A stretch of 64,000 nt of DNA, taken from sequence record MH791411.1; one strand, given 5' to 3'. The stretch comes from Escherichia phage Ecwhy_1. The number at the start of each line of letters is the position of its first letter. Within the stretch, counting starts at the first letter, position 1. The notes under the pieces are model-generated. The model did no database searches and was not told the origin of the DNA. It saw only the letters and a list, made by a program, of their open reading frames with translations. Position numbers and translations under genes: made by a program. Positions 47,083-64,000 of this stretch are shown piece after piece.

Positions 47083-47083
47083 T

Positions 47084-47575: not shown

Positions 47576-47584
47576 TTTATAATC

Positions 47585-48710: not shown

Positions 48711-48868
48711 TATAAGGAGAACGTTCGCGGCGGGGTATTTTTTGTTTCAGGAAACATGAACTGTACTCTGAAAACACATTTTAAAACTTTATATTAAACA
48801 TATACCTTAACATGTTTTTCAGCGAAAATTTTTTTGACCCCCCAGCGGCCTGTGAAAATGAAACGTCT

Positions 48869-49274: not shown

Positions 49275-49437
49275 AATATGTCCTCTGCACAGCGTAGGTG
49301 TACTGTGAACTCAGCACCGTTAATAGGTAATCTATGTTGTAAGCACGATTTCCTCGTTGACTAGCACGACTAGAATAAAGAATATTATCCACATATGTAT
49401 CGAACTGTTCTTCAAATAACTCTTTCATCAGCACCCT

Positions 49438-50862: not shown

Positions 50863-50875
50863 GTGTGCCTCAACC

Positions 50876-51070
50876 TTATCTTGTGTTAAAATATTCACTG
50901 AAATGATTATAACACAAAAGCACCACGATGTTAAGCACTCTGTTGTCAAAATCATCTTGTGATGTAGGATGCAATGACGCATTGATGTTAAAATTCACTA
51001 TATCATTGTGGAATTGGTATGTGAACAAATCAAACTTCGTATGCCTTTGTTTGATATCATAGGCGGTCAT
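50876..51070 (-). CDS. hypothetical small protein
   Basis: 64 aa ORF between two family A genes. Confidence 0.3.
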   Translation of the reverse strand: MTAYDIKQRHTKFDLFTYQFHNDIVNFNINASLHPTSQDDFDNRVLNIVVLLCYNHFSEYFNTR

Positions 51071-51071
51071 A

Positions 51072-51680: not shown

Positions 51681-52321
51681 TTTAATTCCCCTGTAATCAC
51701 TGCATTTACTGCACTTGATGCAAATAAACTGATATTTGAACGATACATATCGTACACTGTACTTTCTTTCTTGTGCACAATGAAATCATAAAGATCAACA
51801 AATGCAGGAATAATAATCTTGAATGATTTATTTGGGTACGTCCCAAAATCAACTGTACTCAATTTTGCAACGAGCATAACAACAAAGATTTCTTCTGGAC
51901 TATACACTGTACTGTACTGAAAATAATCCTCTGCACTCATGGCACTCATTGCATTTATATCTTGTGTTTGTAATGTAATATTAAGACAATCAAAAATATA
52001 ATAAAACTCTGATTTGTTTTGTATTTTGTATTTGTCAATTGGGGTATCTCTCATGAACCATAAACGATCTTGTCCATAAAAAGGAATGATTGAATTTGGG
52101 GAAGCCAGAAATACTTCTTCTCTATCAATATCCTTTAACTCAATTTGCATACCGGATGAATTGGCAATAATTAATTCATTAAAAATATAATGAACCTTGT
52201 GTACAATCTCTTGTACTGAATTGAAATCATCTGGTATTTTAAAATTTTCCATAGGTATCTCCTTAAAATGATTACACATTGTACCATGCATTTGTACTCG
52301 TGTCAAACAAAAAAAGCCCAT
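51677..52321 (-). CDS. family A paralog (start uncertain)
   Basis: 214 aa; A-E-D-Y-F-Q-Y-S-T-V-Y. Confidence 0.55.
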   Translation of the reverse strand: MGFFCLTRVQMHGTMCNHFKEIPMENFKIPDDFNSVQEIVHKVHYIFNELIIANSSGMQIELKDIDREEVFLASPNSIIPFYGQDRLWFMRDTPIDKYKIQNKSEFYYIFDCLNITLQTQDINAMSAMSAEDYFQYSTVYSPEEIFVVMLVAKLSTVDFGTYPNKSFKIIIPAFVDLYDFIVHKKESTVYDMYRSNISLFASSAVNAVITGELK

Positions 52322-52324
52322 ATC

Positions 52325-52822
52325 TTACGATACAGGCATGTTTATTTGAATTTCATTGTACAAATCATCAATATATAGACATGAAAACGATAAACTTTCT
52401 TTAACTATATTGTTGTGATAAAGCATTTTAAATGCAATATAGAAAAATAAATCAATATCATCATGTACTAAATTCTGCTGGAACCACCACTCTTCTGTTA
52501 AATCTTGTGCATTAAAATCATCAGGAACTACAATTGACGACATATCAGCATCTTCTTTGTACTCAAACCACATGTCGTCATTTGGATAACGTTCATGCTT
52601 CTCTGGGTAACAATTGCTGGGATTAAATGCTAAAATATAAAATGCCGTCGCAGAATGTTCTTTATTATAAAATGAATTATTCCACACCTGATACCTTTCA
52701 CCAACATCAAACTCTTTTGATACTGATGTTATTGCACATAATGTACGATATATTGTTTCTATTTTGTGAACAAATTTAAAGGCTGCATCTAAACTGAACT
52801 CTAAATCAGACATGCGGTGCAT
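52325..52822 (-). CDS. family A paralog
   Basis: 165 aa; T-E-E-W-W-F-Q-Q-N-L-V. Confidence 0.55.
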   Translation of the reverse strand: MHRMSDLEFSLDAAFKFVHKIETIYRTLCAITSVSKEFDVGERYQVWNNSFYNKEHSATAFYILAFNPSNCYPEKHERYPNDDMWFEYKEDADMSSIVVPDDFNAQDLTEEWWFQQNLVHDDIDLFFYIAFKMLYHNNIVKESLSFSCLYIDDLYNEIQINMPVS

Positions 52823-53142
52823 AAAATTACCTCAACTAAAATAAGAACGGTATTGAATTCGATGCAACCTTTGATACCTTGATTGTACATGTACTTTGCT
52901 ACTACATATTTCTGTACTAAATTATAATTATTAAATTCCTCAAAATTGTAATTTAGAATGAAATTTGTACTCAAAAATAACTTATGCATCTCTAATGCAC
53001 TCTGATAATATTTGTACAACTCTCTGATATCAATACTTTGTAAATCACTTTGTTCATATCTATGATAAGGAATGGCTTCAATTTCAATACTATAAAACCA
53101 TTCTCTTAACTTCTTAATATCAAATGTATTATTCAGCTTCAT
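52801..53142 (-). CDS. hypothetical protein
   Basis: 113 aa ORF, no family motif. Confidence 0.45.
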   Translation of the reverse strand: MKLNNTFDIKKLREWFYSIEIEAIPYHRYEQSDLQSIDIRELYKYYQSALEMHKLFLSTNFILNYNFEEFNNYNLVQKYVVAKYMYNQGIKGCIEFNTVLILVEVILCTACLI

Positions 53143-53698
53143 AACTCAATACCTCCATTAAGCACTCATAAACACCATCAATCGCATAAGCACAAAAACT
53201 GAAATTAATTTTGTTATTCTTGTGTAATGGACTATTGTATACTGTACTCAACATAACACTATAAAACAAAGAACGTTCATGTGTAAATAATGATTCCTGA
53301 AAAAATGCTTCCTCTGATTTAATTTTATTATATTCAATCGATTGATCATTAGAATAAAATGAATCTTGATTTGAATTGTACCATGTGTAATCCAAATCAT
53401 TCTTTGATATAACTGGTGTTGGATTAAACTGTAAAAGACTAATAACACTACGGGCATTTGGGGTATCAGGTGTATTGAATCGTTTGTCAAAATAACTTGT
53501 GCACGCAATATGTGAATCAAAATCAGATGGTTTAAACCCCATGAATGCGTTAATGATTCTTGTATATGGTTTTTTATTATGTGCTGCTTTCTGTACATTA
53601 TATAAGGCTGCAACAATACAAGCTAACTTTTGTCCCATTAGGATTGCATTAGCGTAGGTGTACTGAATTTCATTGCTGGTACGGTACTTCGAGATCAT
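53129..53698 (-). CDS. family A paralog
   Basis: 189 aa; S-E-E-A-F-F-Q-E-S-L-F. Confidence 0.55.
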   Translation of the reverse strand: MISKYRTSNEIQYTYANAILMGQKLACIVAALYNVQKAAHNKKPYTRIINAFMGFKPSDFDSHIACTSYFDKRFNTPDTPNARSVISLLQFNPTPVISKNDLDYTWYNSNQDSFYSNDQSIEYNKIKSEEAFFQESLFTHERSLFYSVMLSTVYNSPLHKNNKINFSFCAYAIDGVYECLMEVLSYEAE

Positions 53699-53996
53699 GG
53701 AACAGCCTCACTTTGCCTAACTCGTCATTGGATATTAATTCGTTAACAGCTTTCTGTATATTCTTTAATAATAGCACATCAAATCCTTTTGTGTCAAGCA
53801 CACATTGCATTTGGAAGAATTCTTCTTCTGATAATGTATTAAAATCCACAAAATTGTCTAATATTACGTCATTATCCAAATGTGCCATGTACCATGTATT
53901 TCTTTCGGAGCGTTTGATAAAATTCCATCCATCTGGATAATCGGGTTCTAATTCTACATATATCCCTGATAATGTATAAAGCATTTTATACTTCAT
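53670..53996 (-). CDS. family A paralog (MKYKMLYTL pair)
   Basis: Track ORF (GTG at 54020) trimmed to ATG 53994-53996 by paralog comparison; S-E-E-E-F-F-Q-M-Q-C-V. Confidence 0.5.
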   Translation of the reverse strand: MKYKMLYTLSGIYVELEPDYPDGWNFIKRSERNTWYMAHLDNDVILDNFVDFNTLSEEEFFQMQCVLDTKGFDVLLLKNIQKAVNELISNDELGKVRLFHDLEVPYQQ

Positions 53997-54016
53997 AACT
54001 ATTGTACTCATTGCTT

Positions 54017-54328
54017 TCACTGTACGTCGATGTCATAATACGCTCCTACCTCATAATCTTTCTTGCTTTGGAATTCATTAACGGCTTTCTGTATATTTCT
54101 TAATGTTACCATGTCATGTCCGTACATGTCAACCACCAATTGCATTTGGAAAAATTCTTCTTCAGATAATGTATTAAAATCTATAAAATAATCCGTAACA
54201 ACCTGTGCGTCTAAATTTGCCATGTACCATTGATTGGTATCGACCTCTTTAACCAAATTCCATGCATCTGAATCGGATTCTAATTCTACATATATTAATG
54301 TTAATGTATACAGCATTTTATACTTCAT
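54017..54328 (-). CDS. family A paralog (MKYKMLYTL pair)
   Basis: 103 aa; S-E-E-E-F-F-Q-M-Q-L-V; AAGGA RBS. Confidence 0.55.
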   Translation of the reverse strand: MKYKMLYTLTLIYVELESDSDAWNLVKEVDTNQWYMANLDAQVVTDYFIDFNTLSEEEFFQMQLVVDMYGHDMVTLRNIQKAVNEFQSKKDYEVGAYYDIDVQ

Positions 54329-54878
54329 AACTATATCCTTGCATTAAAAGATCATAAGCAATATCAACTAATTCTAAACGAATGAAAAATTTTAAATTAT
54401 CTTTCAATGGATTCAAATGCATTGTACTAAACAACATAAGATACTTCATTTGATTTGTATTGTATATTAGGGATGTCTGAAATACTTCTGCTTCATTGTA
54501 AGGATCAATGAATTTTATACCTTCTTCACTATAATCCGTTTTGGAATTCTGATATATAAAATAATCATCACCATAATTGTACCACAAATAACCTTCAAAA
54601 CTGGAATCAAATTCTGAATTTTCATTTCGCATTAAAGGTGATACTGAAATTGGATTTGAACCAACTGTTGCACAAACCTCAATGAAAGCATCTTCATTTC
54701 CCTTAACTTCTTCTTTGATTTTATCATTGTACTGTCCTGCAAAACCAGCTTTTACTTCCAAATATAAACTACTCCCAACTTTATTAATTCTTAAAAGGGA
54801 ACTCTGTACTGTATTCGCATTGTCCAGCACTAACGATATTGTGCAAATCTTATGTACCAATAACTCAATATCATTCAT
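54318..54878 (-). CDS. family A paralog
   Basis: 186 aa; E-A-E-V-F-Q-T-S-L-I-Y. Confidence 0.55.
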   Translation of the reverse strand: MNDIELLVHKICTISLVLDNANTVQSSLLRINKVGSSLYLEVKAGFAGQYNDKIKEEVKGNEDAFIEVCATVGSNPISVSPLMRNENSEFDSSFEGYLWYNYGDDYFIYQNSKTDYSEEGIKFIDPYNEAEVFQTSLIYNTNQMKYLMLFSTMHLNPLKDNLKFFIRLELVDIAYDLLMQGYSYEV

Positions 54879-54889
54879 ATTGGTATTCC

Positions 54890-55072
54890 TTAATTTGGTG
54901 GATTTGGATGTAATAACTGATCTATATAATTTAAATGTTCTATTGTAACTAATGAAAGATAATAATTGTAATTATCTATACCACCCTTTAAATGTATATT
55001 GTAATACATCTTGATACTTACTAATAAAGAATCATTTAAATCATTTATTGCTTTTGTATTAACGGTTTTCAT
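54890..55072 (-). CDS. hypothetical small protein
   Basis: 60 aa ORF. Confidence 0.35.
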   Translation of the reverse strand: MKTVNTKAINDLNDSLLVSIKMYYNIHLKGGIDNYNYYLSLVTIEHLNYIDQLLHPNPPN

Positions 55073-55211
55073 TAATGTTCTTCTCTTAAAAAACGCTTAA
55101 TGGCACAATCTAAATAAAAATCATAATACATCATATCTCTATTCTTAACCCATACACAATAATCTGCATTAATATTTCTTAATAATATATTCATATTATA
55201 ATCTTCACACC

Positions 55212-55622
55212 CTAATCGTGCCATTTAATAGGATACTCCGTTCCATTTATTGTATAAGATATAATCCATCCGTAATGAATAGGATGATTTTTGTCTGAAA
55301 CAGGAATAAAATATAAAGATGTACTGGGGTTATAACTGAATAAATCGTTGTTACCAATTGTAAAATGTGATAACTCAATCTTCCTTGTACCTGTACTTGG
55401 ACGAAGAACATTCTTAACACCGAAGACTGTACCTTGATATTTCTCGGAAAATTCAAACAATGCATCTGCAATTAAATCACGAAACTCCGCATGTATGGTT
55501 TCAAAAAAATCTATATTACACGATGTTTTAATATCCTTGAACTCCTTATATAAAGAGCTTCTTGTATTCAAAAGAAATATTACTTTTTTAAGATCCTGAA
55601 CTATTTCTGGATTCATATTCAT
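55212..55622 (-). CDS. hypothetical protein
   Basis: 136 aa ORF. Confidence 0.5.
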   Translation of the reverse strand: MNMNPEIVQDLKKVIFLLNTRSSLYKEFKDIKTSCNIDFFETIHAEFRDLIADALFEFSEKYQGTVFGVKNVLRPSTGTRKIELSHFTIGNNDLFSYNPSTSLYFIPVSDKNHPIHYGWIISYTINGTEYPIKWHD

Positions 55623-55872
55623 TTATCTCATTCTGTAACTTAAGCATCAAAATTTGCATATTAATTTTTTGTACAAGATGATTGAGAAATTTCTGTACTG
55701 TATCTTCTTGTTCTTTTGTACCAAGATAAAATAACATATTAAATTCAGATAATCTCAGAGCGAAATCTTCCTCTCCCCCTCGTAAACAAAAATCCCTGTA
55801 CTTTGAAGCATACAAATAAGCATCTATCTTTTTATACCTTTGGGTCTGCATTGTATCTCCTTTTTCATGCAC
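55588..55872 (-). CDS. family B paralog (interspersed copy)
   Basis: 94 aa; F-Y-L-G-T-K-E-Q-E-D-T-V. Confidence 0.5.
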   Translation of the reverse strand: MHEKGDTMQTQRYKKIDAYLYASKYRDFCLRGGEEDFALRLSEFNMLFYLGTKEQEDTVQKFLNHLVQKINMQILMLKLQNEINEYESRNSSGS

Positions 55873-56036
55873 CTTATTAGATTATCAACGTATTGATCCT
55901 GTACTATTGTCCCTAGATAAAATGATACTTCGAACTCTGATAATTTTATATTGAAAGGATCTACATATACATCTTTAATAAACTCTTTGTACTTCAACAT
56001 ATATGCATTAGGTATATTCTTATATATCGATTTCAA
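55824..56036 (-). CDS. family B paralog (interspersed copy)
   Basis: 70 aa; F-Y-L-G-T-I-V-Q-D-Q-Y-V. Confidence 0.5.
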   Translation of the reverse strand: MKSIYKNIPNAYMLKYKEFIKDVYVDPFNIKLSEFEVSFYLGTIVQDQYVDNLIRCMKKEIQCRPKGIKR

Positions 56037-56331
56037 TGATCCTCCCTGACATACCTTGTATTAGCTTATCATACATATCGAGCATCACTTTTTGAATACT
56101 AATTAATACTGGCATCGTGCAAATATCAATGTCGTATATTAAGCTGTACTGGAATAATTCCTCTTCCTGCATGTGTACTAAATTAGGTAAAAGATAATTG
56201 TCTGCCTCTTCATCCTGGTACTTGAAATGCATAACACCATCCTTTTTGTACAAAAGAATGTCAATATCACCTAACTCTTCTGCATAACCAAAAATACATA
56301 TACTCGATGTTTTTGCTATATTAAATTTCAT
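56020..56331 (-). CDS. family A paralog
   Basis: 103 aa; E-E-E-L-F-Q-Y-S-L-I-Y-D. Confidence 0.55.
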   Translation of the reverse strand: MKFNIAKTSSICIFGYAEELGDIDILLYKKDGVMHFKYQDEEADNYLLPNLVHMQEEELFQYSLIYDIDICTMPVLISIQKVMLDMYDKLIQGMSGRIIEIDI

Positions 56332-56340
56332 ATTCTTCTC

Positions 56341-56691
56341 TTATATGTAGAATTCACATACGCGTTGAACAAAATTCTTTGGAAGATGACAATGTGCAAT
56401 CATCTGCTTTTGTACTTCCTTCATGTCTTCGAATGTAAATCCTAAAGAATCATCATGTACTAACAAGTACTGAAACTCTTCTTCTTCAGAGATAGAACAT
56501 AAATTCGGTACTGAAATTGTTTTTGCTTTTCTTGCACCCAATTTCCAATGAAAAGAATTATTGCATTTTCTGTACTCAAATATCTTCAACCCAGAACCTG
56601 TATTAAAATCAGCTACTACAATGTAACATGAATTCTTACGTACAATACAATTGAACTTACGCATTATCTCCACCTCTCTCCGTCTGTACAA
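56341..56691 (-). CDS. family A paralog
   Basis: 116 aa; S-E-E-E-E-F-Q-Y-L-L-V-H-D. Confidence 0.55.
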   Translation of the reverse strand: MYRRREVEIMRKFNCIVRKNSCYIVVADFNTGSGLKIFEYRKCNNSFHWKLGARKAKTISVPNLCSISEEEEFQYLLVHDDSLGFTFEDMKEVQKQMIAHCHLPKNFVQRVCEFYI

Positions 56692-56909
56692 GAGTACTGG
56701 TACGTTGTCGTTAGGGTAGGGACCATGTTGGTAATGGGCATATTATTAACAATAACGGTAACAGGCATAAGTATCGTCTCTACTCTACTCTGTCCTGTCC
56801 TTGTGCAATTCATCTTTTGCATTTCATCGGACTCCATGAAATACAATACAAATGGTGCAATCCCAAGAACAATACACAAGACGATAAGGAAATTTAAAAA
56901 ATTCAACAT
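56664..56909 (-). CDS. hypothetical small membrane protein (strand ambiguous)
   Basis: 81 aa with hydrophobic N-term; a plus-strand ORF 56725..56931 with a TM helix covers the same DNA. Confidence 0.3.
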   Translation of the reverse strand: MLNFLNFLIVLCIVLGIAPFVLYFMESDEMQKMNCTRTGQSRVETILMPVTVIVNNMPITNMVPTLTTTYQYSCTDGERWR

Positions 56910-56970
56910 AATTTTCTACCCTAATGATTAACGTACAGGTACTATATCAGTAATGAAAAGTACTGTCAAG

Positions 56971-57345
56971 CTAGTATTGCACTGTTCTAATGAAAGTACC
57001 TTTACTCATGGATTTAAGCTTATGAACCTCTTCCTGTATACCCTTGATTAACCCTAAAGGTATAGGTACATCATGTACTAAGCTGTACTGAAAGTATTCT
57101 TCTTCAGATAAAGTACTAACATCTGGAATACCAATTTTAGTTATATAATCTTGATGTGTTGACCAATAAATTATATCTTCAGTACTATTGTACTCCCCAT
57201 ATACTGAACAATATTGATGAATATCTTTCATGTATCCTTGAGCAATAAAGAACTTATCTACTGCATTACCAGCATTAATAGAATTCACTTCGATTGTCAC
57301 AGTACTTGAGCTTGTTTTTCCTTTACTATGCATATTAATCCCCAA
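56971..57345 (-). CDS. family A paralog
   Basis: 124 aa; S-E-E-E-Y-F-Q-Y-S-L-V-H-D. Confidence 0.55.
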   Translation of the reverse strand: MGINMHSKGKTSSSTVTIEVNSINAGNAVDKFFIAQGYMKDIHQYCSVYGEYNSTEDIIYWSTHQDYITKIGIPDVSTLSEEEYFQYSLVHDVPIPLGLIKGIQEEVHKLKSMSKGTFIRTVQY

Positions 57346-57521
57346 ATTAGATATCGAACACTATCAGCTTGATAGTTAGTTCCTACTGTGTGTTTTAATA
57401 TTAACTCATCTTTCAGTACTGAACATTCTGCATTAGATATAGGAAGAGAATTAATTCTTTGAATTTCTGGTCGCAAAATACCGCGAAGCTTGCGGTAATC
57501 TTCGTATGATAATATTTTCAT
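57297..57521 (-). CDS. family B paralog (interspersed copy)
   Basis: 74 aa; V-G-T-N-Y-Q-A-D-S-V. Confidence 0.5.
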   Translation of the reverse strand: MKILSYEDYRKLRGILRPEIQRINSLPISNAECSVLKDELILKHTVGTNYQADSVRYLIWGLICIVKEKQAQVL

Positions 57522-57524
57522 TGT

Positions 57525-57866
57525 TTAGTACTCAACGATGTGTTCTTCATAACCATTAAACTCCGGTTTAGTTTCTTTCATTAGGACTACCATTTTATGT
57601 ACTAATGGCATAGGAAATTCTAAATCCCATACTAATGATTCTTGAAAGTATTCTTCTTCAGATAAAGTACTTAAATCTTTAATATCAACGTGCTTGTATA
57701 TTTTATTTTCGTAATTAAGAAATGATATATATAAATCATTAACATCAGAATCATAAGTAATTGTGAATGGCTTACCCTTGTAGTCCATTACATCTTTACA
57801 TAGACTGCATTTGATATATGTATGTTCTTCTGAACTGTATACATTGAGTTGTATATTAGTTTTCAT
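57525..57866 (-). CDS. family A paralog
   Basis: 113 aa; S-E-E-E-Y-F-Q-E-S-L-V-W-D. Confidence 0.55.
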   Translation of the reverse strand: MKTNIQLNVYSSEEHTYIKCSLCKDVMDYKGKPFTITYDSDVNDLYISFLNYENKIYKHVDIKDLSTLSEEEYFQESLVWDLEFPMPLVHKMVVLMKETKPEFNGYEEHIVEY

Positions 57867-58140
57867 ATTTCTCTTTATTAGCTTGTTTAGATTGTGTGGT
57901 TTTATAGTGAATTAAATCTATTAATGTAATCAAGTACAACGTCAAATAGTACTCTTGTTGATCTGTACCTAATGATACAAAGAACTTGTGCTCATAGATT
58001 AAAACCTGTTTCTCATAACAAGAACACTTAATCCTATGTATAGGTTTCAGTAAATGTGAGTACTTATTAAATCTCATACCCATTTCTATTTCAGATAGTA
58101 CTTTCATATTAAACATGTACTCCATTAGCTGTAGCATCAC
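57856..58140 (-). CDS. family B paralog
   Basis: 94 aa; S-L-G-T-D-Q-Q-E-Y-Y-L. Confidence 0.5.
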   Translation of the reverse strand: MMLQLMEYMFNMKVLSEIEMGMRFNKYSHLLKPIHRIKCSCYEKQVLIYEHKFFVSLGTDQQEYYLTLYLITLIDLIHYKTTQSKQANKEKYEN

Positions 58141-58330
58141 GTAAAGCTCTCAAATACTTCTGTACTGCTTGCTCTTGATGATCTGTACCTAAAAGTATAT
58201 ACATCCATAATTCACTGTAATGTACATCTTGTGTATAAGGGTTGTTGTAACTTTTTGATAATATAGCATCAAATTCAGATGCATGAACCCTTGCGAACTT
58301 AAGCATATCTTGTTGTGTTATGATTCTCAT
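58109..58330 (-). CDS. family B paralog
   Basis: 73 aa; L-G-T-D-H-Q-E-Q-A-V. Confidence 0.55.
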   Translation of the reverse strand: MRIITQQDMLKFARVHASEFDAILSKSYNNPYTQDVHYSELWMYILLGTDHQEQAVQKYLRALRDATANGVHV

Positions 58331-58542
58331 ATCTTTTCCTGTACTATCTGCATAAGAATCTCTATGTGTGAATTAACAGTTCTCTCTTGATGCTGTGTTC
58401 CTAAGAGTGTCAGTACTATCATATCTGAACGCAAAAGATTTTTTTCAAGTTCACTTATATCAGTTCTTGAATCAAGTGCCATATATTTGTGATTATTCTT
58501 CCTGAATAGTGCCAAGTACTCTTGATTTGATATTTCCTTCAT
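58327..58542 (-). CDS. family B paralog
   Basis: 71 aa; L-G-T-Q-H-Q-E-R-T-V. Confidence 0.55.
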   Translation of the reverse strand: MKEISNQEYLALFRKNNHKYMALDSRTDISELEKNLLRSDMIVLTLLGTQHQERTVNSHIEILMQIVQEKI

Positions 58543-58778
58543 AGTTTATCCCTGATGCCATTTAAAAGTGCTCTAATATGCTCCTGTACGAATTTGTACT
58601 GACTGTCTGTTCCTAGAGTGAGTAGTAATCTTAAATCTGAACTTTTGATATGATATTCTAAATCATTATTTGATTCTTGCATCAGTTTCTTAAAGGATGA
58701 GAAGTTTGCAGCCATTAGTTCAATGTATTCTGCTGTTCCTAGGGGTTTGTGTATTGGCTGTTTGTGCTGTCTGTGCAT
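58539..58778 (-). CDS. family B paralog
   Basis: 79 aa; L-G-T-D-S-Q-Y-K-F-V. Confidence 0.55.
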   Translation of the reverse strand: MHRQHKQPIHKPLGTAEYIELMAANFSSFKKLMQESNNDLEYHIKSSDLRLLLTLGTDSQYKFVQEHIRALLNGIRDKL

Positions 58779-58990
58779 TTTAATTTTATTACCCTTTTGA
58801 GTGTATTAATGTAATTATACACATTGGCTTCTTGATAGTTTGTTCCTAGAGTAGCTTGAACGTAGATTTCATTTAACTTAATAATTTTATCAGTATCTGG
58901 AAGTTTTGATGTGTTAATGGCAAATAACTTCGAAAACAGTCCATTTATGATTGTTAGGTATTCTTCGTCGGTAATGATTCGCATTTGCAT
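58739..58990 (-). CDS. family B paralog
   Basis: 83 aa; L-G-T-N-Y-Q-E-A-N-V. Confidence 0.55.
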   Translation of the reverse strand: MQMRIITDEEYLTIINGLFSKLFAINTSKLPDTDKIIKLNEIYVQATLGTNYQEANVYNYINTLKRVIKLKCTDSTNSQYTNP

Positions 58991-59196
58991 TGGATAAACC
59001 TTTTTAGTTCTTTGATGTAATCATTAATATTACATTCTTGATAGTTAGTCCCTAGGGTAGAATTAACATAGATTTCACTCATTAGAATATTTTTTTCTTC
59101 ATCAGGTAAATCTGTGGTCTTTGCTATATACAATTTTAGAATTAAACTACTTAATAGTTCGTGGTATTCACTTGGTGAAAGGATTTTCATTTGCAT
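58954..59196 (-). CDS. family B paralog
   Basis: 80 aa; L-G-T-N-Y-Q-E-C-N-I. Confidence 0.55.
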   Translation of the reverse strand: MQMKILSPSEYHELLSSLILKLYIAKTTDLPDEEKNILMSEIYVNSTLGTNYQECNINDYIKELKRFIQCKCESLPTKNT

Positions 59197-59402
59197 GTTC
59201 TCAGTACAGATTCTTTAAGTTCATCGATGTAGTCCTCAACGAATTGCTCTTGGAAGTTAGTTCCAACATATAAAAGAACTCTTAAATCTGCTCTAAGTAA
59301 CTCTTTTTCATCCTCATCTATATCAGACAATGTTATGTTTAAGAATTTACTTGTATTAAAGATTAACAATTCTGTTTGTTCACTGTGGCTTAAAATTTTC
59401 AT
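59187..59402 (-). CDS. family B paralog
   Basis: 71 aa; V-G-T-N-F-Q-E-Q-F-V. Confidence 0.55.
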   Translation of the reverse strand: MKILSHSEQTELLIFNTSKFLNITLSDIDEDEKELLRADLRVLLYVGTNFQEQFVEDYIDELKESVLRTCK

Positions 59403-59610
59403 AATCTCTTTTTGCTTTCCTCGACAGTAGGTACAAATACGATTCTTCGTATTGTGCTTGGAAGTTTGTGTTTAAGAGTCGAAACAACTTCTGTTCTGCT
59501 AGAACGAGTTGCTTATCTTCATAACAACGGTAGCGTATCAACTTTTTGTATTCGATGTTGATTACATCCATTACTATAAGCCCATGTTCATCATCTGTCA
59601 AGTGCTTCAT
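59380..59610 (-). CDS. family B paralog
   Basis: 76 aa; L-N-T-N-F-Q-A-Q-Y. Confidence 0.5.
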   Translation of the reverse strand: MKHLTDDEHGLIVMDVINIEYKKLIRYRCYEDKQLVLAEQKLFRLLNTNFQAQYEESYLYLLSRKAKRDYENFKPQ

Positions 59611-59848
59611 GCTTTTTTCTTTTCCTGATGTGTTTAGTTAAAAGGTATATTAGTTTTCTGATGTATTCTTCTTGATAGTTTGTTCCTAGGAGTGCCAGAA
59701 GTTTTGCTTCAACTAAAGCTAATTGACGTTCTTCAAATGTGTGTTCCAGTATGTACTTTGGGTTTGATTTTTTAGATATTGCACTATTAGTTTTCATTAC
59801 AATCTTATGATATTCATTAACTGTTAGGATTTTTAAATTCTTGAGCAT
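59591..59848 (-). CDS. family B paralog
   Basis: 85 aa; L-G-T-N-Y-Q-E-E-Y-I. Confidence 0.55.
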   Translation of the reverse strand: MLKNLKILTVNEYHKIVMKTNSAISKKSNPKYILEHTFEERQLALVEAKLLALLGTNYQEEYIRKLIYLLTKHIRKRKKHEALDR

Positions 59849-60074
59849 GTACCTTTTCCTTTATAGAGAATTTAAGATATCGAAGCATACTTTCAATGTA
59901 ATACTCTTGTCTGTCAGTGCCAAGAAAGTACATGAGTTGAATGTATAAAACTTCTGCACTCCTTTCGGCATGTGACTTGTTTGTGTCGTTTGGAAGTTGA
60001 TTTGTAAGTTTTCTGGATTTAATTAGTCGTTCTTTTAACTCATCGTCTGTTAAGTATTTCATTTCATTTTGCAT
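59817..60074 (-). CDS. family B paralog (MQNEM trio)
   Basis: 85 aa; F-L-G-T-D-R-Q-E-Y-Y-I. Confidence 0.55.
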   Translation of the reverse strand: MQNEMKYLTDDELKERLIKSRKLTNQLPNDTNKSHAERSAEVLYIQLMYFLGTDRQEYYIESMLRYLKFSIKEKVHAQEFKNPNS

Positions 60075-60294
60075 TTACTTTTTCCTTAATACTCATTACA
60101 AGATGTTCAATCATATTTTGAACCATAAATTCTTGTTTATCAGTTCCAAGAACGTATGGTAGCTTCTGAAACAATACATTCGCAGACATTTCATATATTG
60201 ATTGATTTGGAACGAACTTAAGAGTAATGTTATTGGCTTTTAACATCTTCTCTTGAAATTCTTCATTCGTTAAGTATATCATTTCACTTTGCAT
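60064..60294 (-). CDS. family B paralog (MQNEM trio)
   Basis: 76 aa; V-L-G-T-D-K-Q-E-F-M-V. Confidence 0.55.
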   Translation of the reverse strand: MQSEMIYLTNEEFQEKMLKANNITLKFVPNQSIYEMSANVLFQKLPYVLGTDKQEFMVQNMIEHLVMSIKEKVNAK

Positions 60295-60520
60295 TTACTT
60301 TTTCCATAATAGTAATTTTGAGATATTTAATTATACGTTCAATGTGATACTCTTGCCTATCAGTTCCAAGAATGTATGGTAATCTTTGGAATAAAACTTC
60401 TGCACTCCTTTCCGCTGGGGTTTGGTTTGGGTTGTGTGGAAGATATTTTGTAAGTTTTTTGGATTTATCTAGTCTTTCTGTTAACTCATCATGTGTTAAG
60501 TATATCATTTCATTTTGCAT
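60284..60520 (-). CDS. family B paralog (MQNEM trio)
   Basis: 78 aa; I-L-G-T-D-R-Q-E-Y-H-I. Confidence 0.55.
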   Translation of the reverse strand: MQNEMIYLTHDELTERLDKSKKLTKYLPHNPNQTPAERSAEVLFQRLPYILGTDRQEYHIERIIKYLKITIMEKVNAK

Positions 60521-60756
60521 TTAATGTTCCTTACGTAAATTGTCTGGATTAAACAATCAATCCAAGTTTGAATATATTGGTTTTGATACTGTGTGCCTAA
60601 GAGACTCTGCATTTTAAACTCTGCTTCAAGTTCATATCTCTTTTCTATAGAAAAGCTCAAATGACCATATTCTTTATCGTATCTTCTCAGTGCTTCCCCA
60701 ATTCTATCAAATCTTTCTGCTAATCTGATGTTATTCACAATATTCATCGCATTCAT
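60505..60756 (-). CDS. family B paralog
   Basis: 83 aa; L-G-T-Q-Y-Q-N-Q-Y-I. Confidence 0.55.
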   Translation of the reverse strand: MNAMNIVNNIRLAERFDRIGEALRRYDKEYGHLSFSIEKRYELEAEFKMQSLLGTQYQNQYIQTWIDCLIQTIYVRNIKCKMK

Positions 60757-61031
60757 CGATCAGTACACCTCAGTGGTTGGGTCATTTGATGAAAGTACAG
60801 CTTACCTCTGATTTCCAGTAGTAACTCAGCAATTAAGCGATTTACTTCTGGCTCTTGATAGTTTGTTCCTAAGAATACACCCATCTTTAACTCACGCATC
60901 ATAATCATTTTCTTACTGTGTTGAATTTCTGGGTTGTGATAGATTGTATTACGTTTGTGCGTAATTTTTGTCATACGCTCGGTATATTCATCTTTACTTA
61001 AATTGATCATTTGCATGTTCATCAACCTCAC
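60753..61031 (-). CDS. family B paralog
   Basis: 92 aa; L-G-T-N-Y-Q-E-P-E-V. Confidence 0.55.
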   Translation of the reverse strand: MRLMNMQMINLSKDEYTERMTKITHKRNTIYHNPEIQHSKKMIMMRELKMGVFLGTNYQEPEVNRLIAELLLEIRGKLYFHQMTQPLRCTDR

Positions 61032-61242
61032 ATTTATTTTCGATACAAATCATGAGTTCTCTAAGATAGTTTTTTACCTTACCTGCCTGATAGTTCGTCC
61101 CCAGGAAGTTGCATAACTCTGCTTCTATCATTTTGATTCTTCTGTTATCAGGTTTCAATTTTTTGTTATTGAAGATTTGAATCCTTATATCCCTTGATGC
61201 ATTTAAACGTTTTTGATATTCATGGAAAGATAAATTAATCAT
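60994..61242 (-). CDS. family B paralog
   Basis: 82 aa; L-G-T-N-Y-Q-A-G-K-V. Confidence 0.55.
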   Translation of the reverse strand: MINLSFHEYQKRLNASRDIRIQIFNNKKLKPDNRRIKMIEAELCNFLGTNYQAGKVKNYLRELMICIENKCEVDEHANDQFK

Positions 61243-61457
61243 TTACTTTGTATCTCTCTCTTGAGGGCATCAATTAACAACAGTACAGCATTCTCTTGAT
61301 AGTTTGTTCCTAAGACTGAAAGCATCTTAATCTCATTTACTACGATCAACTTCTTTGAGCGTTCAATAATGTTACTATTATAAACGGCGTTACGTGCTGG
61401 ATAAGTTTTTGCAAGACGTTCATAATATTCATCTTTACTTAAATTAATCATTTGCAT
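61239..61457 (-). CDS. family B paralog
   Basis: 72 aa; L-G-T-N-Y-Q-E-N-A-V. Confidence 0.55.
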   Translation of the reverse strand: MQMINLSKDEYYERLAKTYPARNAVYNSNIIERSKKLIVVNEIKMLSVLGTNYQENAVLLLIDALKREIQSK

Positions 61458-61666
61458 TTACTTTTGACCTCCTTGACTAATGCATCAACCCACATGTCTA
61501 TATACATTTGTTGATAGTTTGTCCCTATGAGTGCCCCTGCATAGAGTTCAGCTATCAATGCATGTTTTAGGTTGGCAGGGATGCTCTTATCAGATTGAAT
61601 CTTTACTCTTCTGTTGGCACATGTTTTCAGGAGTCTGATGTATTCAAAGCCTTGTAATTTTCTCAT
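61448..61666 (-). CDS. family B paralog
   Basis: 72 aa; I-G-T-N-Y-Q-Q-M-Y-I. Confidence 0.55.
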   Translation of the reverse strand: MRKLQGFEYIRLLKTCANRRVKIQSDKSIPANLKHALIAELYAGALIGTNYQQMYIDMWVDALVKEVKSKCK

Positions 61667-61878
61667 TCTTTTGATATCACCTTGTTACGTAAGGCACTTA
61701 ACAATACGTCAGTGTAGATGTTTTGATAGTTTGTTCCTACGAATACACCCAACTTCATTTCAGCTATTATAACACATTTGTCCTCTTGTGCAATAGACTT
61801 GTCTAAAGAAATACTAACAACTTTCCTTCTTATAGCTTGTAACCTCCAATGATACTGAAACTCATTTAGGGTTATCAT
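61663..61878 (-). CDS. family B paralog
   Basis: 71 aa; V-G-T-N-Y-Q-N-I-Y. Confidence 0.55.
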   Translation of the reverse strand: MITLNEFQYHWRLQAIRRKVVSISLDKSIAQEDKCVIIAEMKLGVFVGTNYQNIYTDVLLSALRNKVISKE

Positions 61879-62113
61879 TCTCTCGCCTCCATATCTCGGT
61901 TCTAATGTGTTGACATTGTGCTTCGATGAACATATCTATTGATTTGGCAATTGCTTTTTTATCAGTGCCTGTCATCAGTACAAGCATCTCGGCCTCACAG
62001 TGAAGTAAACGCATGATATCATAGGGTAATATTCCAGATACCGTGTCATAGTGTTTCTGTGCCAGTGTCTGTAATAGTTTACAATACATTTTGTGATTTA
62101 GTCTTTGTCGCAT
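61862..62113 (-). CDS. family B paralog (degenerate core)
   Basis: 83 aa; M-T-G-T-D-K-K-A-I. Confidence 0.45.
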   Translation of the reverse strand: MRQRLNHKMYCKLLQTLAQKHYDTVSGILPYDIMRLLHCEAEMLVLMTGTDKKAIAKSIDMFIEAQCQHIRTEIWRRENDNPK

Positions 62114-62370
62114 TGTCTATTCCATTCTTTTTTGGCCTTGATGGTTTTATATTGGATTTGGTTTCTTAATGCTGATAAGTATCGTTGAATGAACAGATCT
62201 TGATAGTTTGTTCCAATGAATTTCATAAGATAAAGTTCACCGTTGATAACATCCACTTCAGGTGCACCATATAAGGCATTGTTTTTTCTAAGGGCATGGA
62301 TTAAAGAGAATAGGGCAGTTTGATACTCAACTCCTGATAAAGTCTTCATGTTTTGTGAGCCAATAATCAT
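62098..62370 (-). CDS. family B paralog
   Basis: 90 aa; I-G-T-N-Y-Q-D-L-F-I. Confidence 0.55.
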   Translation of the reverse strand: MIIGSQNMKTLSGVEYQTALFSLIHALRKNNALYGAPEVDVINGELYLMKFIGTNYQDLFIQRYLSALRNQIQYKTIKAKKEWNRQCDKD

Positions 62371-62590
62371 CTAGTTTATCCTGTATAACATTCATTAATT
62401 GTTCGACATATTCTGTGCAAAACTTATCTTGATATTGAGTCCCCATAAAGTACAGCAACCATAGCTCATTAACTTTAGCTCGCATTTGGTTCCATGTAAG
62501 GCTGGGGTCATCGTAGACTATCCTTGCTATAGGGGTTAGTTTACGGACTATAGTTTCATATTCATCTAGTGTTAAGTGTTTCATTTGCAT
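62327..62590 (-). CDS. family B paralog
   Basis: 87 aa; M-G-T-Q-Y-Q-D-K-F. Confidence 0.55.
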   Translation of the reverse strand: MQMKHLTLDEYETIVRKLTPIARIVYDDPSLTWNQMRAKVNELWLLYFMGTQYQDKFCTEYVEQLMNVIQDKLDDYWLTKHEDFIRS

Positions 62591-62799
62591 TTGTCCCTTA
62601 TTAAATCAGTGAGGGCAACTATGTGTGCAACAACATACTCTTCCTGAAAGTTCGTCCCCAGTACAGCCATCATGCGTATATCGGTGGTGTTTATTCTGTG
62701 TTCCCTTACACATAAACCTTCTGTGTGAGGAAGTGTAAAATATTTGTTTATTGCAGCAACGATAATTTTATTCTTCTCGTAATTACTTAAATGTTTCAT
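62581..62799 (-). CDS. family B paralog
   Basis: 72 aa; L-G-T-N-F-Q-E-E-Y-V. Confidence 0.55.
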   Translation of the reverse strand: MKHLSNYEKNKIIVAAINKYFTLPHTEGLCVREHRINTTDIRMMAVLGTNFQEEYVVAHIVALTDLIRDKCK

Positions 62800-63008
62800 A
62801 GTTTGCTCTTAATGTATTTCTGGAGTGCAATTATATACTCATTCAAGAAGTGCTCCTGATAATCTGTGCCGAGGAATGCACCCAATAGTATATCATTTTC
62901 CAATACTAATGCTAAGTTTAAATCATCAGTCTCTTCATATACTATGAGAATTTCAAGTTGTCTGGCAGCGACGCGTTCGGTATATAGATTTGAGTTAATG
63001 CTATTCAT
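62796..63008 (-). CDS. family B paralog (near-identical pair)
   Basis: 70 aa; L-G-T-D-Y-Q-E-H-F-L; C-term Y-I-I-A-L-Q-K-Y-I-K-S-K-L. Confidence 0.55.
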   Translation of the reverse strand: MNSINSNLYTERVAARQLEILIVYEETDDLNLALVLENDILLGAFLGTDYQEHFLNEYIIALQKYIKSKL

Positions 63009-63217
63009 AGTTTACTCTTAATGTAATTCTGGAGTGCAATTAAGTATTCCCCTACATAATACACCTGAAAGTCTGTATCCAAAAATGCACCCATAAGTAA
63101 ATCTTTTTCTAATACCCTTGATAAGTTAAGGTCTGCATTTGAATTGTATATAATTAAGATTTTATTCTGGACAGAAACAAAACGTATCTTATATTCTTCT
63201 GGTGTTAAAAAAATCAT
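63005..63217 (-). CDS. family B paralog (near-identical pair)
   Basis: 70 aa; L-D-T-D-F-Q-V-Y-Y-V; C-term Y-L-I-A-L-Q-N-Y-I-K-S-K-L. Confidence 0.55.
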   Translation of the reverse strand: MIFLTPEEYKIRFVSVQNKILIIYNSNADLNLSRVLEKDLLMGAFLDTDFQVYYVGEYLIALQNYIKSKL

Positions 63218-63423
63218 AGTTTACTCTTAATATCTTCTATTAAAAAATGAATCCAATCATCAACATACTCTTCCTGATGGTTTGTGTTCAGTACAGCCAA
63301 CATGCGGATCTCTGCTCTTGCAACTTGGATTTCAGTTTTAGAAAGGTCTTTGCTGATATCAAACATTAAGTCCATGTATTTCAAGATAAGACCGAATGAT
63401 TGGGTTCGTGTTATAGTTTTCAT
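63214..63423 (-). CDS. family B paralog
   Basis: 69 aa; L-N-T-N-H-Q-E-E-Y-V. Confidence 0.55.
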   Translation of the reverse strand: MKTITRTQSFGLILKYMDLMFDISKDLSKTEIQVARAEIRMLAVLNTNHQEEYVDDWIHFLIEDIKSKL

Positions 63424-63620
63424 TGTTTCCTCGTGGACAATATTTCATTTTTCAATGCATCCATATATTGAATCACCCATCTTCCCTGATAGCTTGTACC
63501 CAATGTAATCAAAAGGTATAACTCAATTCGTTCTAAGTTTGTGTCTGTGTTATAAATCTTTACCATGTTTTTACGTAACAGTTCTTGATAATCTTCTTTA
63601 TTTAAAATACGCATTTTCAT
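63420..63620 (-). CDS. family B paralog
   Basis: 66 aa; L-G-T-S-Y-Q-G-R-W-V. Confidence 0.55.
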   Translation of the reverse strand: MKMRILNKEDYQELLRKNMVKIYNTDTNLERIELYLLITLGTSYQGRWVIQYMDALKNEILSTRKQ

Positions 63621-63814
63621 AGTCTACCTTTTATGTCCCTTCGTAATTCTTGTAAGTATAGTTCGATATACTTTTCTTGATAGTTAGTTCCTATGAAAAG
63701 TTTCATAACCAATTCACGCTTATATGCAATACCACGGATATGTGACATATGTAAGATATATGCCATGTTGGATATGAGTGTGTGGTTGTGCTCTTCTTGA
63801 GTTAAAATACGCAT
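63617..63814 (-). CDS. family B paralog (first gene of array)
   Basis: 65 aa; I-G-T-N-Y-Q-E-K-Y-I; GGAG RBS 7 nt before ATG at 63812-63814. Confidence 0.55.
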   Translation of the reverse strand: MRILTQEEHNHTLISNMAYILHMSHIRGIAYKRELVMKLFIGTNYQEKYIELYLQELRRDIKGRL

Positions 63815-63844
63815 AGGGACTCCATTAAAAATAATATCAATCCA

Positions 63845-63872: not shown

Positions 63873-64000
63873 TAACATTTTATAAGTAATACCCCTTTAT
63901 CGAAGTCGCTAAGGTTACCCGCCCTTTAGCCCCCTACGCATTTTGCCATAGTCCAATCCCTTTTTATTCATAAAAGTCAAGGGATTACCTATGCATTTTT

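What the first reader, a model, noticed from the sequence alone, without database searches (positions are those of the whole stretch)
57856..63814. Promoter-proximal array of 27 back-to-back small paralogous genes (family B, LGTNYQE core) that I cannot assign to any known family
Every minus-strand ORF from 57856 to 63814 (63-94 aa, usually overlapping its neighbour by 1-40 nt) has the same architecture: N-terminal M-x-(K/R)-I-L-(S/T)-x-x-E-Y, about 25 variable residues, then a core (L/F)-(L/V)-G-T-(N/D/Q)-(Y/F/H)-Q-(E/D)-x-x-(V/I)-x-x-(Y/W)-(I/L)-x-x-L and a short basic tail. Five more copies sit inside the family A array (43169-43556, 55588-56036, 57297-57521). Outside the core the copies are strongly diverged, yet some neighbours are near-identical. 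The array begins right behind a sigma70-like promoter (63845-63872), so it would be the first thing transcribed from this end. Promoter-proximal, hyper-diversified batteries of tiny proteins are what host-takeover or anti-defence inhibitor sets look like, but that functional reading is inference.
Basis: partly seen in the sequence, partly recalled or inferred. Interest (0 to 1): 0.85.

Follow-up and report, generated by a model that had tools for sequence, protein, structure and literature searches.

The report
Jumbo-phage array of tiny paralogous genes
A giant E. coli phage carries, right after its terminal repeat, one operon of 27 diverged copies of a tiny protein of unknown function; it is probably a set of protein binders used early in infection, but no experiment has tested this.

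Summary
Window 57856-63814 (minus strand) is a gap-free run of 27 ORFs of one family. 26 are recovered at E<=2.5e-7 by an HMM built without them; 61862-62113 is degenerate. The five outlying copies are real.

The window comes from an Asteriusvirus (121Q/PBECO4-like jumbo coliphage; closest record fEgEco12). The array is the first gene block of the unique region: the 21-kb direct terminal repeat (DTR) ends at window 63912, 97 nt before the first ATG. One sigma70-like promoter precedes it, 25 of 26 junctions overlap, and there is no terminator.

The family has no Pfam, PDB, NCBIfam or PADLOC match. It is PHROG 4148, "unknown function". It occurs only in Asteriusvirus and, scattered, in Klebsiella phage RaK2. 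The alignment-based AlphaFold model is a three-helix bundle (pLDDT 93); an alignment-free model of another paralog disagrees.

Conserved positions form the core and two capping motifs; the rest is hypervariable. Paralogs are old (mean 24%, maximum 64% identity), so "near-identical neighbours" is wrong. Orthologs are syntenic with dN/dS 0.35, against 0.12 for nearby genes. Cassettes come and go between almost identical phages. No family member is in the phAPEC6 virion proteome.

Best reading, at confidence about 0.42: a battery of early intracellular binders for host takeover or anti-defence. Function is untested.

The parts
63912..64000 (.). Last 89 nt of the ~21-kb direct terminal repeat (DTR); 63912 is the last repeated base
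   Evidence: The last 500 nt of the fEgEco12 record equal its positions 20494-20993. The 40 nt on either side of the boundary map exactly to window 63951-63912 and 63911 onward. The DTR length of 20,993 bp was determined by PhageTerm and restriction digests (PMC13070987).
63845..63872 (-). Sigma70-like promoter TTGACT-16-TATTAT, 39 nt inside the unique region; putative start of the array transcript
   Evidence: Consensus scan, 10/12; sequence read. Function not tested.
63821..63824 (-). Shine-Dalgarno GGAG of the first array gene
   Evidence: Upstream 20 nt of the ATG at 63814.
57856..63814 (-). Contiguous array of 27 family-B ORFs (65-94 aa), one gap-free unit
   Evidence: ORFs in transcription order: 63617-63814, 63420-63620, 63214-63423, 63005-63217, 62796-63008, 62581-62799, 62327-62590, 62098-62370, 61862-62113, 61663-61878, 61448-61666, 61239-61457, 60994-61242, 60753-61031, 60505-60756, 60284-60520, 60064-60294, 59817-60074, 59591-59848, 59380-59610, 59187-59402, 58954-59196, 58739-58990, 58539-58778, 58327-58542, 58109-58330, 57856-58140. 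25 of 26 junctions overlap, nine of them as ATGA; one has a 5-nt gap.
61862..62113 (-). Degenerate member of the array: LMTGTDKK plus a 6-residue insertion, no conserved Q
   Evidence: Aligns by position and length but scores E=34 when left out of the HMM.
58954..59196 (-). Member used for the structure model (from MKIL...): helices at residues 6-25, 30-44 and 51-71
   Evidence: AlphaFold2 with the 28-paralog alignment: mean pLDDT 93.1, pTM 0.73.
62796..63008 (-). Acidic member (net charge -6) used for the alignment-free model
   Evidence: Single-sequence AlphaFold2 gave four strands plus a C-terminal helix at pLDDT 75.7; the other four models scored 56-70. This conflicts with the alignment-based fold.
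57297..57521 (-). Outlying family-B copy between two family-A genes, still inside the gap-free unit
   Evidence: HMM E=7.9e-10; it was not in the model.
55824..56036 (-). Outlying family-B copy inside the family-A array
   Evidence: HMM E=2.7e-8.
55588..55872 (-). Outlying family-B copy; only the C-terminal half matches
   Evidence: HMM E=7.7e-7, model positions 36-68.
43338..43556 (-). Outlying family-B copy; only the C-terminal half matches
   Evidence: HMM E=3.1e-6, model positions 38-71.
43169..43360 (-). Outlying family-B copy, full length
   Evidence: HMM E=4.3e-13.
56941..56969 (-). Consensus promoter TTGACA-17-TATAGT (with TG) in the first real intergenic gap (56910-56970) after the array; likely start of the next unit
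   Evidence: The genes from 57866 down to 56971 are separated by at most 3 nt.
59573..59601 (-). Internal promoter-like site TTGACA-17-TATAGT (11/12) inside coding sequence; significance unknown
   Evidence: Such matches are not enriched over shuffles.
29655..57866 (-). Context: family-A array of 35 paralogs (104-214 aa, core LSEEE-(Y/L)-FQ-x-S-x-V), unrelated to family B but interleaved with it
   Evidence: jackhmmer finds 35 members. hhalign A against B gives probability 0.3%. PHROGs list it as unknown; no Pfam or PDB match.

Best explanation
The array is a long-standing, individually maintained battery of about 30 small (roughly 8 kDa), soluble, non-virion proteins built on one mini-scaffold.

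How it is built. The conserved residues are the hydrophobic core plus two helix-capping motifs: L-(S/T)-x-x-E-Y at the N-terminus, and G-T-(N/D)-x-Q-E before the last helix. In an up-down three-helix bundle these two motifs sit at the same pole. The opposite pole (end of helix 1, the loop, start of helix 2) is hypervariable in both sequence and length.

How it is expressed. The genes are transcribed by host RNA polymerase from the sigma70-like promoter just inside the DTR/unique junction. They are translated as one coupled polycistron, so all members are made together soon after the DTR genes.

What it does. Each member uses its own variable surface to bind, and so block or redirect, a different target, most likely host proteins (takeover factors or strain-variable defence components). 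The set is renewed by whole-cassette gain, loss and allele replacement through recombination between related phages.

Status of each step:
- Shown: family membership, operon anatomy, position, conservation pattern, selection regime, cassette turnover, absence from virions.
- Inferred: early timing, protein-binding activity, host targets.
For: - Family and anatomy.
- Position: the DTR ends at window 63912, the promoter -35 is at 63872 and the first ATG at 63814. vB_Ec-M-J has the same layout: DTR 21,525 bp, array from 21,538.
- Upstream DTR genes carry consensus TTGACA-17-TATAAT cassettes. In the related phage CBB the equivalent short-ORF region was proposed to be early host-takeover genes (PMC5259590).
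- Same-strand downstream genes include PNKP and Rnl1. The phAPEC6 authors suggest their phage counters the Prr system; linking PNKP and Rnl1 to that anti-PrrC repair pathway is my own knowledge of T4.
- Not structural: none of phAPEC6 gp467c-gp489c is among the 62 virion proteins, although a 4.7-kDa protein was detected.
- Real, selected genes: intact ORFs in eight loci with conserved order; pooled omega 0.35-0.38.
- Scaffold versus surface: the 23 conserved columns are core and capping positions. Omega is about 0.2 there and 0.40-0.46 elsewhere. Ortholog-level changes fall in the same columns that vary among paralogs (rho=0.69).
- Accessory behaviour: omega is three times that of 25 neighbouring genes (0.117). 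dS between adjacent genes ranges from 0 to 1.17. Whole genes are present or absent, and the array is 95.8-99.2% identical, between phages that are 100.0% identical over 16 kb elsewhere. Turkey5 shares only 2 of its 18 clusters.
- Soluble proteins with heterogeneous charge, -7 to +9.
- The family predates the genus: at least 12 copies in RaK2.
Against: - No transcript, protein, toxicity or interaction data exist for any member.
- The promoter is only a consensus match, and such matches are not enriched in the region.
- No overall positive selection: omega is below 1 even at variable positions.
- The paralogs are ancient and syntenic, not a fast-moving 'accordion'.
- An alignment-free model of another paralog predicts a different N-terminal topology.
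- Every conserved residue can be explained by folding alone, so no common active or docking site is demonstrated.
- Conserved interleaving with family A could instead mean a phage-internal role.
Confidence: 0.42

Rival explanations
1. Phage-internal partner system. Family-B proteins are adaptors, chaperones or neutralisers for family-A proteins (or another phage machine), so the two expanded families work together rather than each B hitting a host target.
For: A and B are interleaved in this window: 5 B copies sit inside the A array, with 35 A and 32 B in total. They are interleaved again in a different genus, RaK2, with at least 25 A and at least 12 B in 43 kb. Both arrays are the variable part between near-identical phages.
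Against: 27 B genes stand in one block with no A gene, so there is no repeating A-B unit. The copy ratio differs in RaK2. No profile similarity or known pairing exists. Nothing is known about family A.
Confidence: 0.15
2. Small nucleic-acid-binding regulators or architectural proteins: an expanded set of transcription or RNA regulators, as proposed for the roughly 35-copy zinc-ribbon expansion of phage G.
For: 17 of 27 members have pI>7.8, and many end in a short basic tail. Phage G offers a precedent for an expanded small putative DNA binder (PMC7824862).
Against: Charge is heterogeneous, down to net -7 and pI 4.4. No helix-turn-helix or other DNA-binding fold appears among the listed hits. 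No Pfam DNA-binding match. The basic tail is at least partly the coding footprint of the next gene's ribosome-binding site: ATTAAGAGTAAACTATGA encodes I-K-S-K-L-stop.
Confidence: 0.12
3. Largely functionless products of tandem duplication, kept as genome 'filler' after capsid enlargement. This is the duplication ratchet suggested by Hua et al. 2017.
For: [quoted passage not shown] Constraint is weaker than on neighbouring genes. Individual cassettes are dispensable.
Against: All copies keep intact ORFs, start codons, overlaps and the fold signature in eight loci. Omega is 0.35 overall and 0.2 at scaffold sites, clearly below 1. Orthologs keep their own surfaces. The family persists across two genera. 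There are no recent duplicates.
Confidence: 0.1
4. Virion-packaged internal proteins injected with the DNA, like the T4 internal proteins.
For: Small size, diversification and paralogy resemble the T4 IP genes (my own knowledge).
Against: None of the array products is among the 62 phAPEC6 virion proteins, although proteins as small as 4.7 kDa were detected. They sit in an arm with sigma70-type promoters, not among late genes.
Confidence: 0.03

Closest known systems
Multigene families next to the terminal repeats of large eukaryotic DNA viruses (ASFV MGF110/360/505; poxvirus terminal host-range families). Comparison from my own knowledge, not tested here.
   Same: Tandem paralog families abut a terminal repeat. 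Order is conserved but copies are gained, lost or replaced between close isolates. Divergence among paralogs is deep, and the character is accessory or host-interaction.
   Different: No sequence or fold relationship. These proteins are far smaller (about 70 aa), sit in a bacteriophage, form a single translationally coupled operon, and their function is unproven.
Phage early host-takeover regions at genome ends: T5 pre-early genes in the left terminal repeat, the SPO1 host-takeover module in the terminal redundancy, T7 class I genes (own knowledge). Also the suspected early region of the RaK2-like phage CBB (PMC5259590).
   Same: Many small ORFs of unknown function, read by host sigma70-type promoters, at or next to the terminal repeat and co-directional with DNA entry.
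   Different: Those modules consist of unrelated single-copy genes, each with its own promoter. In this phage the DTR genes look like that. The array instead is 27 paralogs behind one promoter, and it lies just outside the repeat.
Lineage-specific expansion of about 35 zinc-ribbon proteins in Bacillus phage G (PMC7824862; PMC5646251)
   Same: A jumbo phage with about 30 or more tandem copies of a tiny protein of unknown role, read as the result of duplication.
   Different: A different fold (zinc ribbon, against a cysteine-poor helical domain), a different host and a different phage lineage. No homology.
Engineered three-helix-bundle binders (affibodies, from the protein A Z domain) and colicin immunity proteins (own knowledge). 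These are 'works like' analogies only.
   Same: A helical mini-domain of about 60-85 residues with a fixed core and variable surface positions that set binding specificity.
   Different: No sequence match and no specific structural match. Binding has not been shown, and the fold itself is provisional.
PHROG phrog_4148 (and phrog_28039)
   Same: Direct membership: 27 of 28 members match phrog_4148 at E down to 4e-26, and 13 of 28 match phrog_28039.
   Different: The PHROG has no name or functional category, so membership tells us nothing about function.

Membership tests
phrog_4148 (PHROGs v4, unknown function) | Significant match to the family HMM over most of its length | tested here: met
   27 of 28 members match, best E=4.4e-26; member 1 covers profile positions 1-71 of 74.
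Any Pfam-A / NCBIfam / PADLOC family | Match above the curated cut-off, shared by several members | tested here: not met
   Only single-member chance hits at E>=0.0015. The UniRef label 'DUF3885' on homolog P0013 is not reproduced by a Pfam scan.
Proteins with a solved structure (PDB) | Profile-sequence match or a specific fold match | tested here: not met
Helix-turn-helix or other small DNA-binding regulators | Recognisable DNA-binding fold and a uniformly basic surface | tested here: not met
   No such fold among the listed hits. Net charge runs from -7 to +9. Actual DNA binding cannot be tested here.
DNA-mimic anti-restriction proteins (Ocr / ArdA type) | Strongly acidic protein that mimics the DNA backbone | tested here: not met
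   Only 3 of 27 members have net charge <=-4, and 17 are basic. No sequence or fold match.
Virion internal (injected) proteins, T4 IP-like | Presence in purified virions | tested here: not met
   The phAPEC6 array gp467c-gp489c is absent from the 62-protein virion proteome.
Terminal multigene families of large DNA viruses (architectural class) | Tandem paralogs directly adjoining a terminal repeat | tested here: met
   The DTR ends at window 63912 and the first gene starts at 63814.
Terminal multigene families of large DNA viruses (architectural class) | Copy gain, loss or replacement between closely related isolates | tested here: met
   Ortholog map. Three segmental indels against fEgEco12, which is 100.0% identical over 16 kb elsewhere.
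Terminal multigene families of large DNA viruses (architectural class) | Role in host range or evasion of host immunity | not testable with these tools
   Needs deletion mutants and host panels.
Phage early host-takeover module (T5 pre-early / SPO1 type) | Located inside the terminal repeat, each gene with its own strong early promoter | tested here: not met
   The array lies just outside the DTR and has a single promoter-like site for 27 genes. The upstream DTR genes do fit this pattern.
Phage early host-takeover module (T5 pre-early / SPO1 type) | Transcription in the first minutes by host RNA polymerase; host shut-off activity | not testable with these tools
   No transcriptome of an Asteriusvirus was found.
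Recent adaptive gene amplification ('accordion') | Near-identical tandem copies with long DNA repeats | tested here: not met
   Highest protein identity 64%. Longest DNA repeat 138 nt at 83%.

The most novel reading that the evidence does not exclude
The array is a natural 'binder library'. One mini-scaffold has a fixed base and a hypervariable tip, and its roughly 30 co-expressed members each neutralise a different host defence or host factor. The set is reshuffled cassette by cassette between phages at the terminal-repeat junction. That would make it a bacteriophage counterpart of the terminal multigene families of ASFV and poxviruses, possibly working together with the interleaved family A.
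Probability: 0.3. Interest if true: 0.8.

Novelty: new variant of a known kind. Interest (0 to 1): 0.6.

Why it matters
If these proteins are target-specific inhibitors, a single 6-kb operon would supply about 30 new small modulators of E. coli and Salmonella proteins or defence systems, each marking a target. It would also explain part of the 83% 'unknown' gene content of these therapeutically used jumbo phages. It would show that phages, like large eukaryotic viruses, keep diversified multigene families at their genome termini. The compact scaffold could be useful for protein engineering. Even without a known function, the array and family A are where near-identical Asteriusvirus isolates differ, so they are candidate determinants of strain-level host range. 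At present the literature I could search treats such arrays only as evidence of genome growth by duplication.

Tried and rejected
- Searches that found no family match: Pfam, NCBIfam, PADLOC and PDB sequence searches.
- Relationship between families A and B, suggested by the shared 'LSxxEY'-like element: rejected by hhalign, probability 0.3%.
- Virion or internal-protein role: rejected on the phAPEC6 proteome.
- Recent-duplication 'accordion': rejected.
- Non-coding RNA in the window: no Rfam hit.
- The search for related loci could not use the alignment because no stretch was conserved enough. A first degenerate DNA pattern had too few fixed bases.
- tblastn with weak metagenomic homologs P0178 and P0174 found no cultured phage. 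P0178 sits on a 2.4-kb contig that gives little context.
- Chou-Fasman propensities could not decide between the helical and the beta-rich model.
- The first literature search was too broad to be useful. A narrow search for paralogous small anti-defence proteins in jumbo phages found nothing.
- The UniRef name 'DUF3885' for one homolog is unsupported.

Full report
**1. Source of the window**

The array region is 98% identical to Escherichia phages WPEC3, EC.P1 and fEgEco12, and 81-88% identical to UB, PBECO4, phAPEC6 and 121Q. All are genus Asteriusvirus, 121Q/PBECO4-like jumbo myoviruses of about 350 kb. Window 4000-20000 is 100.0% identical to fEgEco12. Every substantial ORF in the window is on the minus strand, and GC skew is negative throughout.

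**2. Checking the observation**

- The 27 minus-strand ORFs at 57856-63814 exist as described and align in register.
- In half-and-half cross-validation, 26 of 27 are recovered by an HMM that never saw them, at E 3e-19 to 2.5e-7. Shuffled copies reach at best E=0.14.
- ORF 61862-62113 fails that test (E=34). It is a degenerate copy.
- 'Near-identical neighbours' is wrong. Paralog identity averages 24% with a maximum of 64%. Adjacent genes average 30% and genes four or more apart 22%. DNA repeats are only footprints of the motif codons and of the gene junctions, the longest being 138 nt at 83%. These are old duplications.

**3. Anatomy**

- *Position.* fEgEco12 has experimentally supported direct terminal repeats (DTR) of 20,993 bp (PMC13070987). 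The last 500 nt of that record equal its positions 20494-20993, and the boundary maps to window 63912/63911.
- So 63912-64000 is the end of the DTR, the promoter-like TTGACT-16-TATTAT (63872-63845) lies 39 nt into unique sequence, and the first ATG (63814) lies 97 nt in.
- vB_Ec-M-J has the same layout: DTR 21,525 bp, array match from 21,538.
- *What lies upstream.* Beyond the window, the DTR genes each carry a stereotyped cassette: TTGACA/TTGCA, 17 nt, TATAAT, GTTTTACAT, a perfect GC hairpin, then a Shine-Dalgarno sequence. The array is therefore the first block after the repeat, not the first thing transcribed.
- *Junctions.* Within the array, 25 of 26 junctions overlap, nine as ATGA, and one has a 5-nt gap. 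There is no convincing terminator, and promoter-like matches are not enriched (41 found against 49 expected).
- The recurrent C-terminal I-K-S-K-L-stop (ATTAAGAGTAAACTATGA) carries the next gene's ribosome-binding site. Part of the 'basic tail' is therefore dual coding.
- *Extent of the unit.* The gap-free unit continues through one family-A gene, one B gene and another A gene to 56971. There a 61-nt gap holds a consensus TTGACA-17-TATAGT.
- *Downstream.* Further along the same strand lie family A, then PNKP, Rnl1, DNA ligase and a phosphoesterase.

**4. The protein**

- *Databases.* There is no Pfam, NCBIfam, PADLOC or PDB match. The family is phrog_4148, 'unknown function'.
- *Alignment-based model.* AlphaFold2 with the 28-paralog alignment gives three helices (residues 6-25, 30-44, 51-71) at pLDDT 93 and pTM 0.73.
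- *Conflicting model.* An alignment-free model of a different paralog predicts four strands plus the C-terminal helix, at pLDDT 76; the other four models scored 56-70.
- *Weighing the two.* Family-wide, Pro and Gly cluster at columns 27-31, 44 and 48, where the helical model has its loops. They are absent from columns 14-15 and 38-39, where the beta model needs turns. I favour the helical model but regard the fold as provisional.
- *Conserved columns.* There are 23: M2, L5, S/T6, E9, Y10, E40, L43, L47, G48, T49, N50, Y51, Q52, E53, V56, Y59, I60, L63, I67, K70 and a few more.
- I read these as heptad core positions plus two capping boxes, S/T-x-x-E and G-T-x-x-Q. By bundle topology the two boxes sit at the same pole. 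This is inference; I had no access to coordinates.
- *Variable columns.* Columns 11-39 are close to maximal entropy and hold the length variation.
- *Physical properties.* The proteins are soluble, with net charge from -7 to +9.

**5. Evolution**

- *Copy number.* The profile finds 32 copies in the window. In the fetched loci of other phages it finds 31 in WPEC3, 30 in fEgEco12, 30 in phAPEC6, 28 in SD-15_S21, 27 in UB, 25 in 121Q and 21 in Turkey5.
- *Orthologs.* They keep their order. Pooled dN/dS is 0.35-0.38, against 0.117 for 25 neighbouring genes in the same phage pair.
- Scaffold columns have omega of about 0.2 and variable columns 0.40-0.46. Recent replacements hit the same columns that vary among paralogs (rho=0.69).
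- Each paralog therefore keeps its own surface under moderate constraint. There is no overall positive selection.
- *Turnover by cassette.* dS between adjacent genes ranges from 0 to 1.17. Slot 1 has two alleles only 58% identical. Clusters 30 and 31 are present in fEgEco12 and WPEC3 but absent here. Turkey5 shares 2 of its 18 clusters.
- Against fEgEco12 the array is 95.8-99.2% identical with three indels, and the family-A region is 98.4% identical, while 16 kb elsewhere is identical.
- *Distribution.* An exhaustive profile search of 1.84 billion representative proteins finds only 83 clusters, all 52-121 aa.
- Among cultured phages, tblastn finds only the 35 Asteriusvirus records. The profile nevertheless detects at least 12 B copies interleaved with at least 25 A copies in Klebsiella phage RaK2, genus Alcyoneusvirus.
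- The family therefore predates Asteriusvirus. The contiguous 27-gene block is, as far as the loci I fetched show, peculiar to that genus.

**6. Function**

- None of the phAPEC6 array products (gp467c-gp489c) is among its 62 virion proteins.
[quoted passage not shown] A 2026 review repeats it. It is unclear whether this refers to family A or B.
- No transcriptome or functional study of these genes turned up.
- For the related phage CBB, the short-ORF region with RpoD-like promoters next to the terminal repeat was suspected to be early host-takeover genes.

*Best explanation (confidence about 0.42).* The array is a co-expressed battery of small intracellular binders on one scaffold, each with its own maintained specificity, aimed at host proteins (takeover or anti-defence), and renewed by cassette exchange.

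*Rivals:*
- a partner system with family A (0.15);
- nucleic-acid-binding regulators (0.12);
- near-neutral duplication 'filler' (0.10);
- virion proteins (0.03).

**7. Comparison and novelty**

Architecturally the closest things are the terminal multigene families of ASFV and poxviruses and the end-located early modules of T5 and SPO1 (my own knowledge; not tested here). The closest phage precedent is the roughly 35-copy zinc-ribbon expansion of phage G. None is homologous.

The existence of such arrays is already noted in the literature and the family is a PHROG. As far as I could find, these points have not been described:
- the family definition;
- its position at the DTR junction;
- the operon anatomy;
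- the split into scaffold and variable positions;
- the selection regime;
- the cassette turnover;
- the cross-genus interleaving with family A.

I rate it a new variant of a known kind, interest 0.6.

Noticed in passing
L001 15069-22905 (WPEC3; the DTR just beyond window 64000): About 14 small DTR genes are each preceded by a stereotyped cassette: (AAGTAC)TTGCA/TTGACA, 17 nt, TATAAT, GTTTTACAT(A/C)GAG, a perfect GC hairpin (GGGGGAAnnGTTCTCCCC), a Shine-Dalgarno sequence, then ATG. It looks like a repeated early promoter plus a 5'-UTR hairpin module of unknown role.
   Followed up: no
window 29655-57866 (minus strand): A second, unrelated paralog family ('A'): 35 members of 104-214 aa, with the core LSEEE-(Y/L)-FQ-x-S-x-V and invariant F-Q. 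It has no Pfam or PDB match and falls in several PHROGs of unknown function.
   Followed up: partly
L026 (RaK2 JQ513383 237435-280791) and window 43169-57866: Families A and B are interleaved in the window and also in Klebsiella phage RaK2, a different genus (at least 25 A and at least 12 B in 43 kb). This suggests an old association between the two families, possibly a functional one.
   Followed up: partly
window 57856-63814 versus 4000-20000, compared with phage UB (L004, L009): Synonymous divergence is lower in the array (dS 0.21) than in neighbouring enzyme genes (dS 0.52), although dN is higher (0.074 against 0.061). Either the array was exchanged between lineages more recently, or its synonymous sites are constrained.
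   Followed up: no
window 4000-20000 versus 30000-64000: Compared with fEgEco12, 16 kb is 100.0% identical, whereas both paralog arrays differ by 1-4% and by whole-gene indels. The arrays are where near-identical isolates differ.
   Followed up: yes
window 14723-15655, 16478-17620, 7033-8451, 6222-7013: PNKP (kinase plus HAD phosphatase), T4-type RNA ligase 1, an ATP-dependent DNA ligase and a calcineurin-like phosphoesterase lie on the same strand downstream. PNKP and Rnl1 form the classical tRNA-repair counter-defence against PrrC (the phAPEC6 paper also suggests Prr countering).
   Followed up: partly
L004 (phage UB) 1587-7492; CMSTMSU (H5): Public annotations miss many array genes. UB has 16 annotated features under the match where the profile finds 27 intact members; CMSTMSU has 13.
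   Followed up: partly
window 62796-63008: Alignment-free AlphaFold2 predicts a beta-rich N-terminal two-thirds for this paralog, unlike the alignment-based three-helix model of 58954-59196. Either it is a single-sequence artefact or the fold is marginal or ambiguous.
   Followed up: partly
protein P0013 (Ecwhy_1 homolog of the array): A UniRef label 'DUF3885 domain-containing protein' is attached to this 70-aa homolog, but a Pfam scan gives no such hit. It is probably a propagated mislabel.
   Followed up: yes
window 58001-62000: AT skew on the + strand is about -0.20 here, against -0.03 to -0.09 elsewhere, and GC skew is close to zero. The array's coding strand is unusually A-rich, presumably from its K/E/N/Q-rich composition.
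   Followed up: no
one search hit list: Several homologs are labelled as Escherichia coli proteins but lie on contigs of about 350 kb. These look like jumbo-phage genomes assembled within bacterial genome projects (carrier state or contamination).
   Followed up: no
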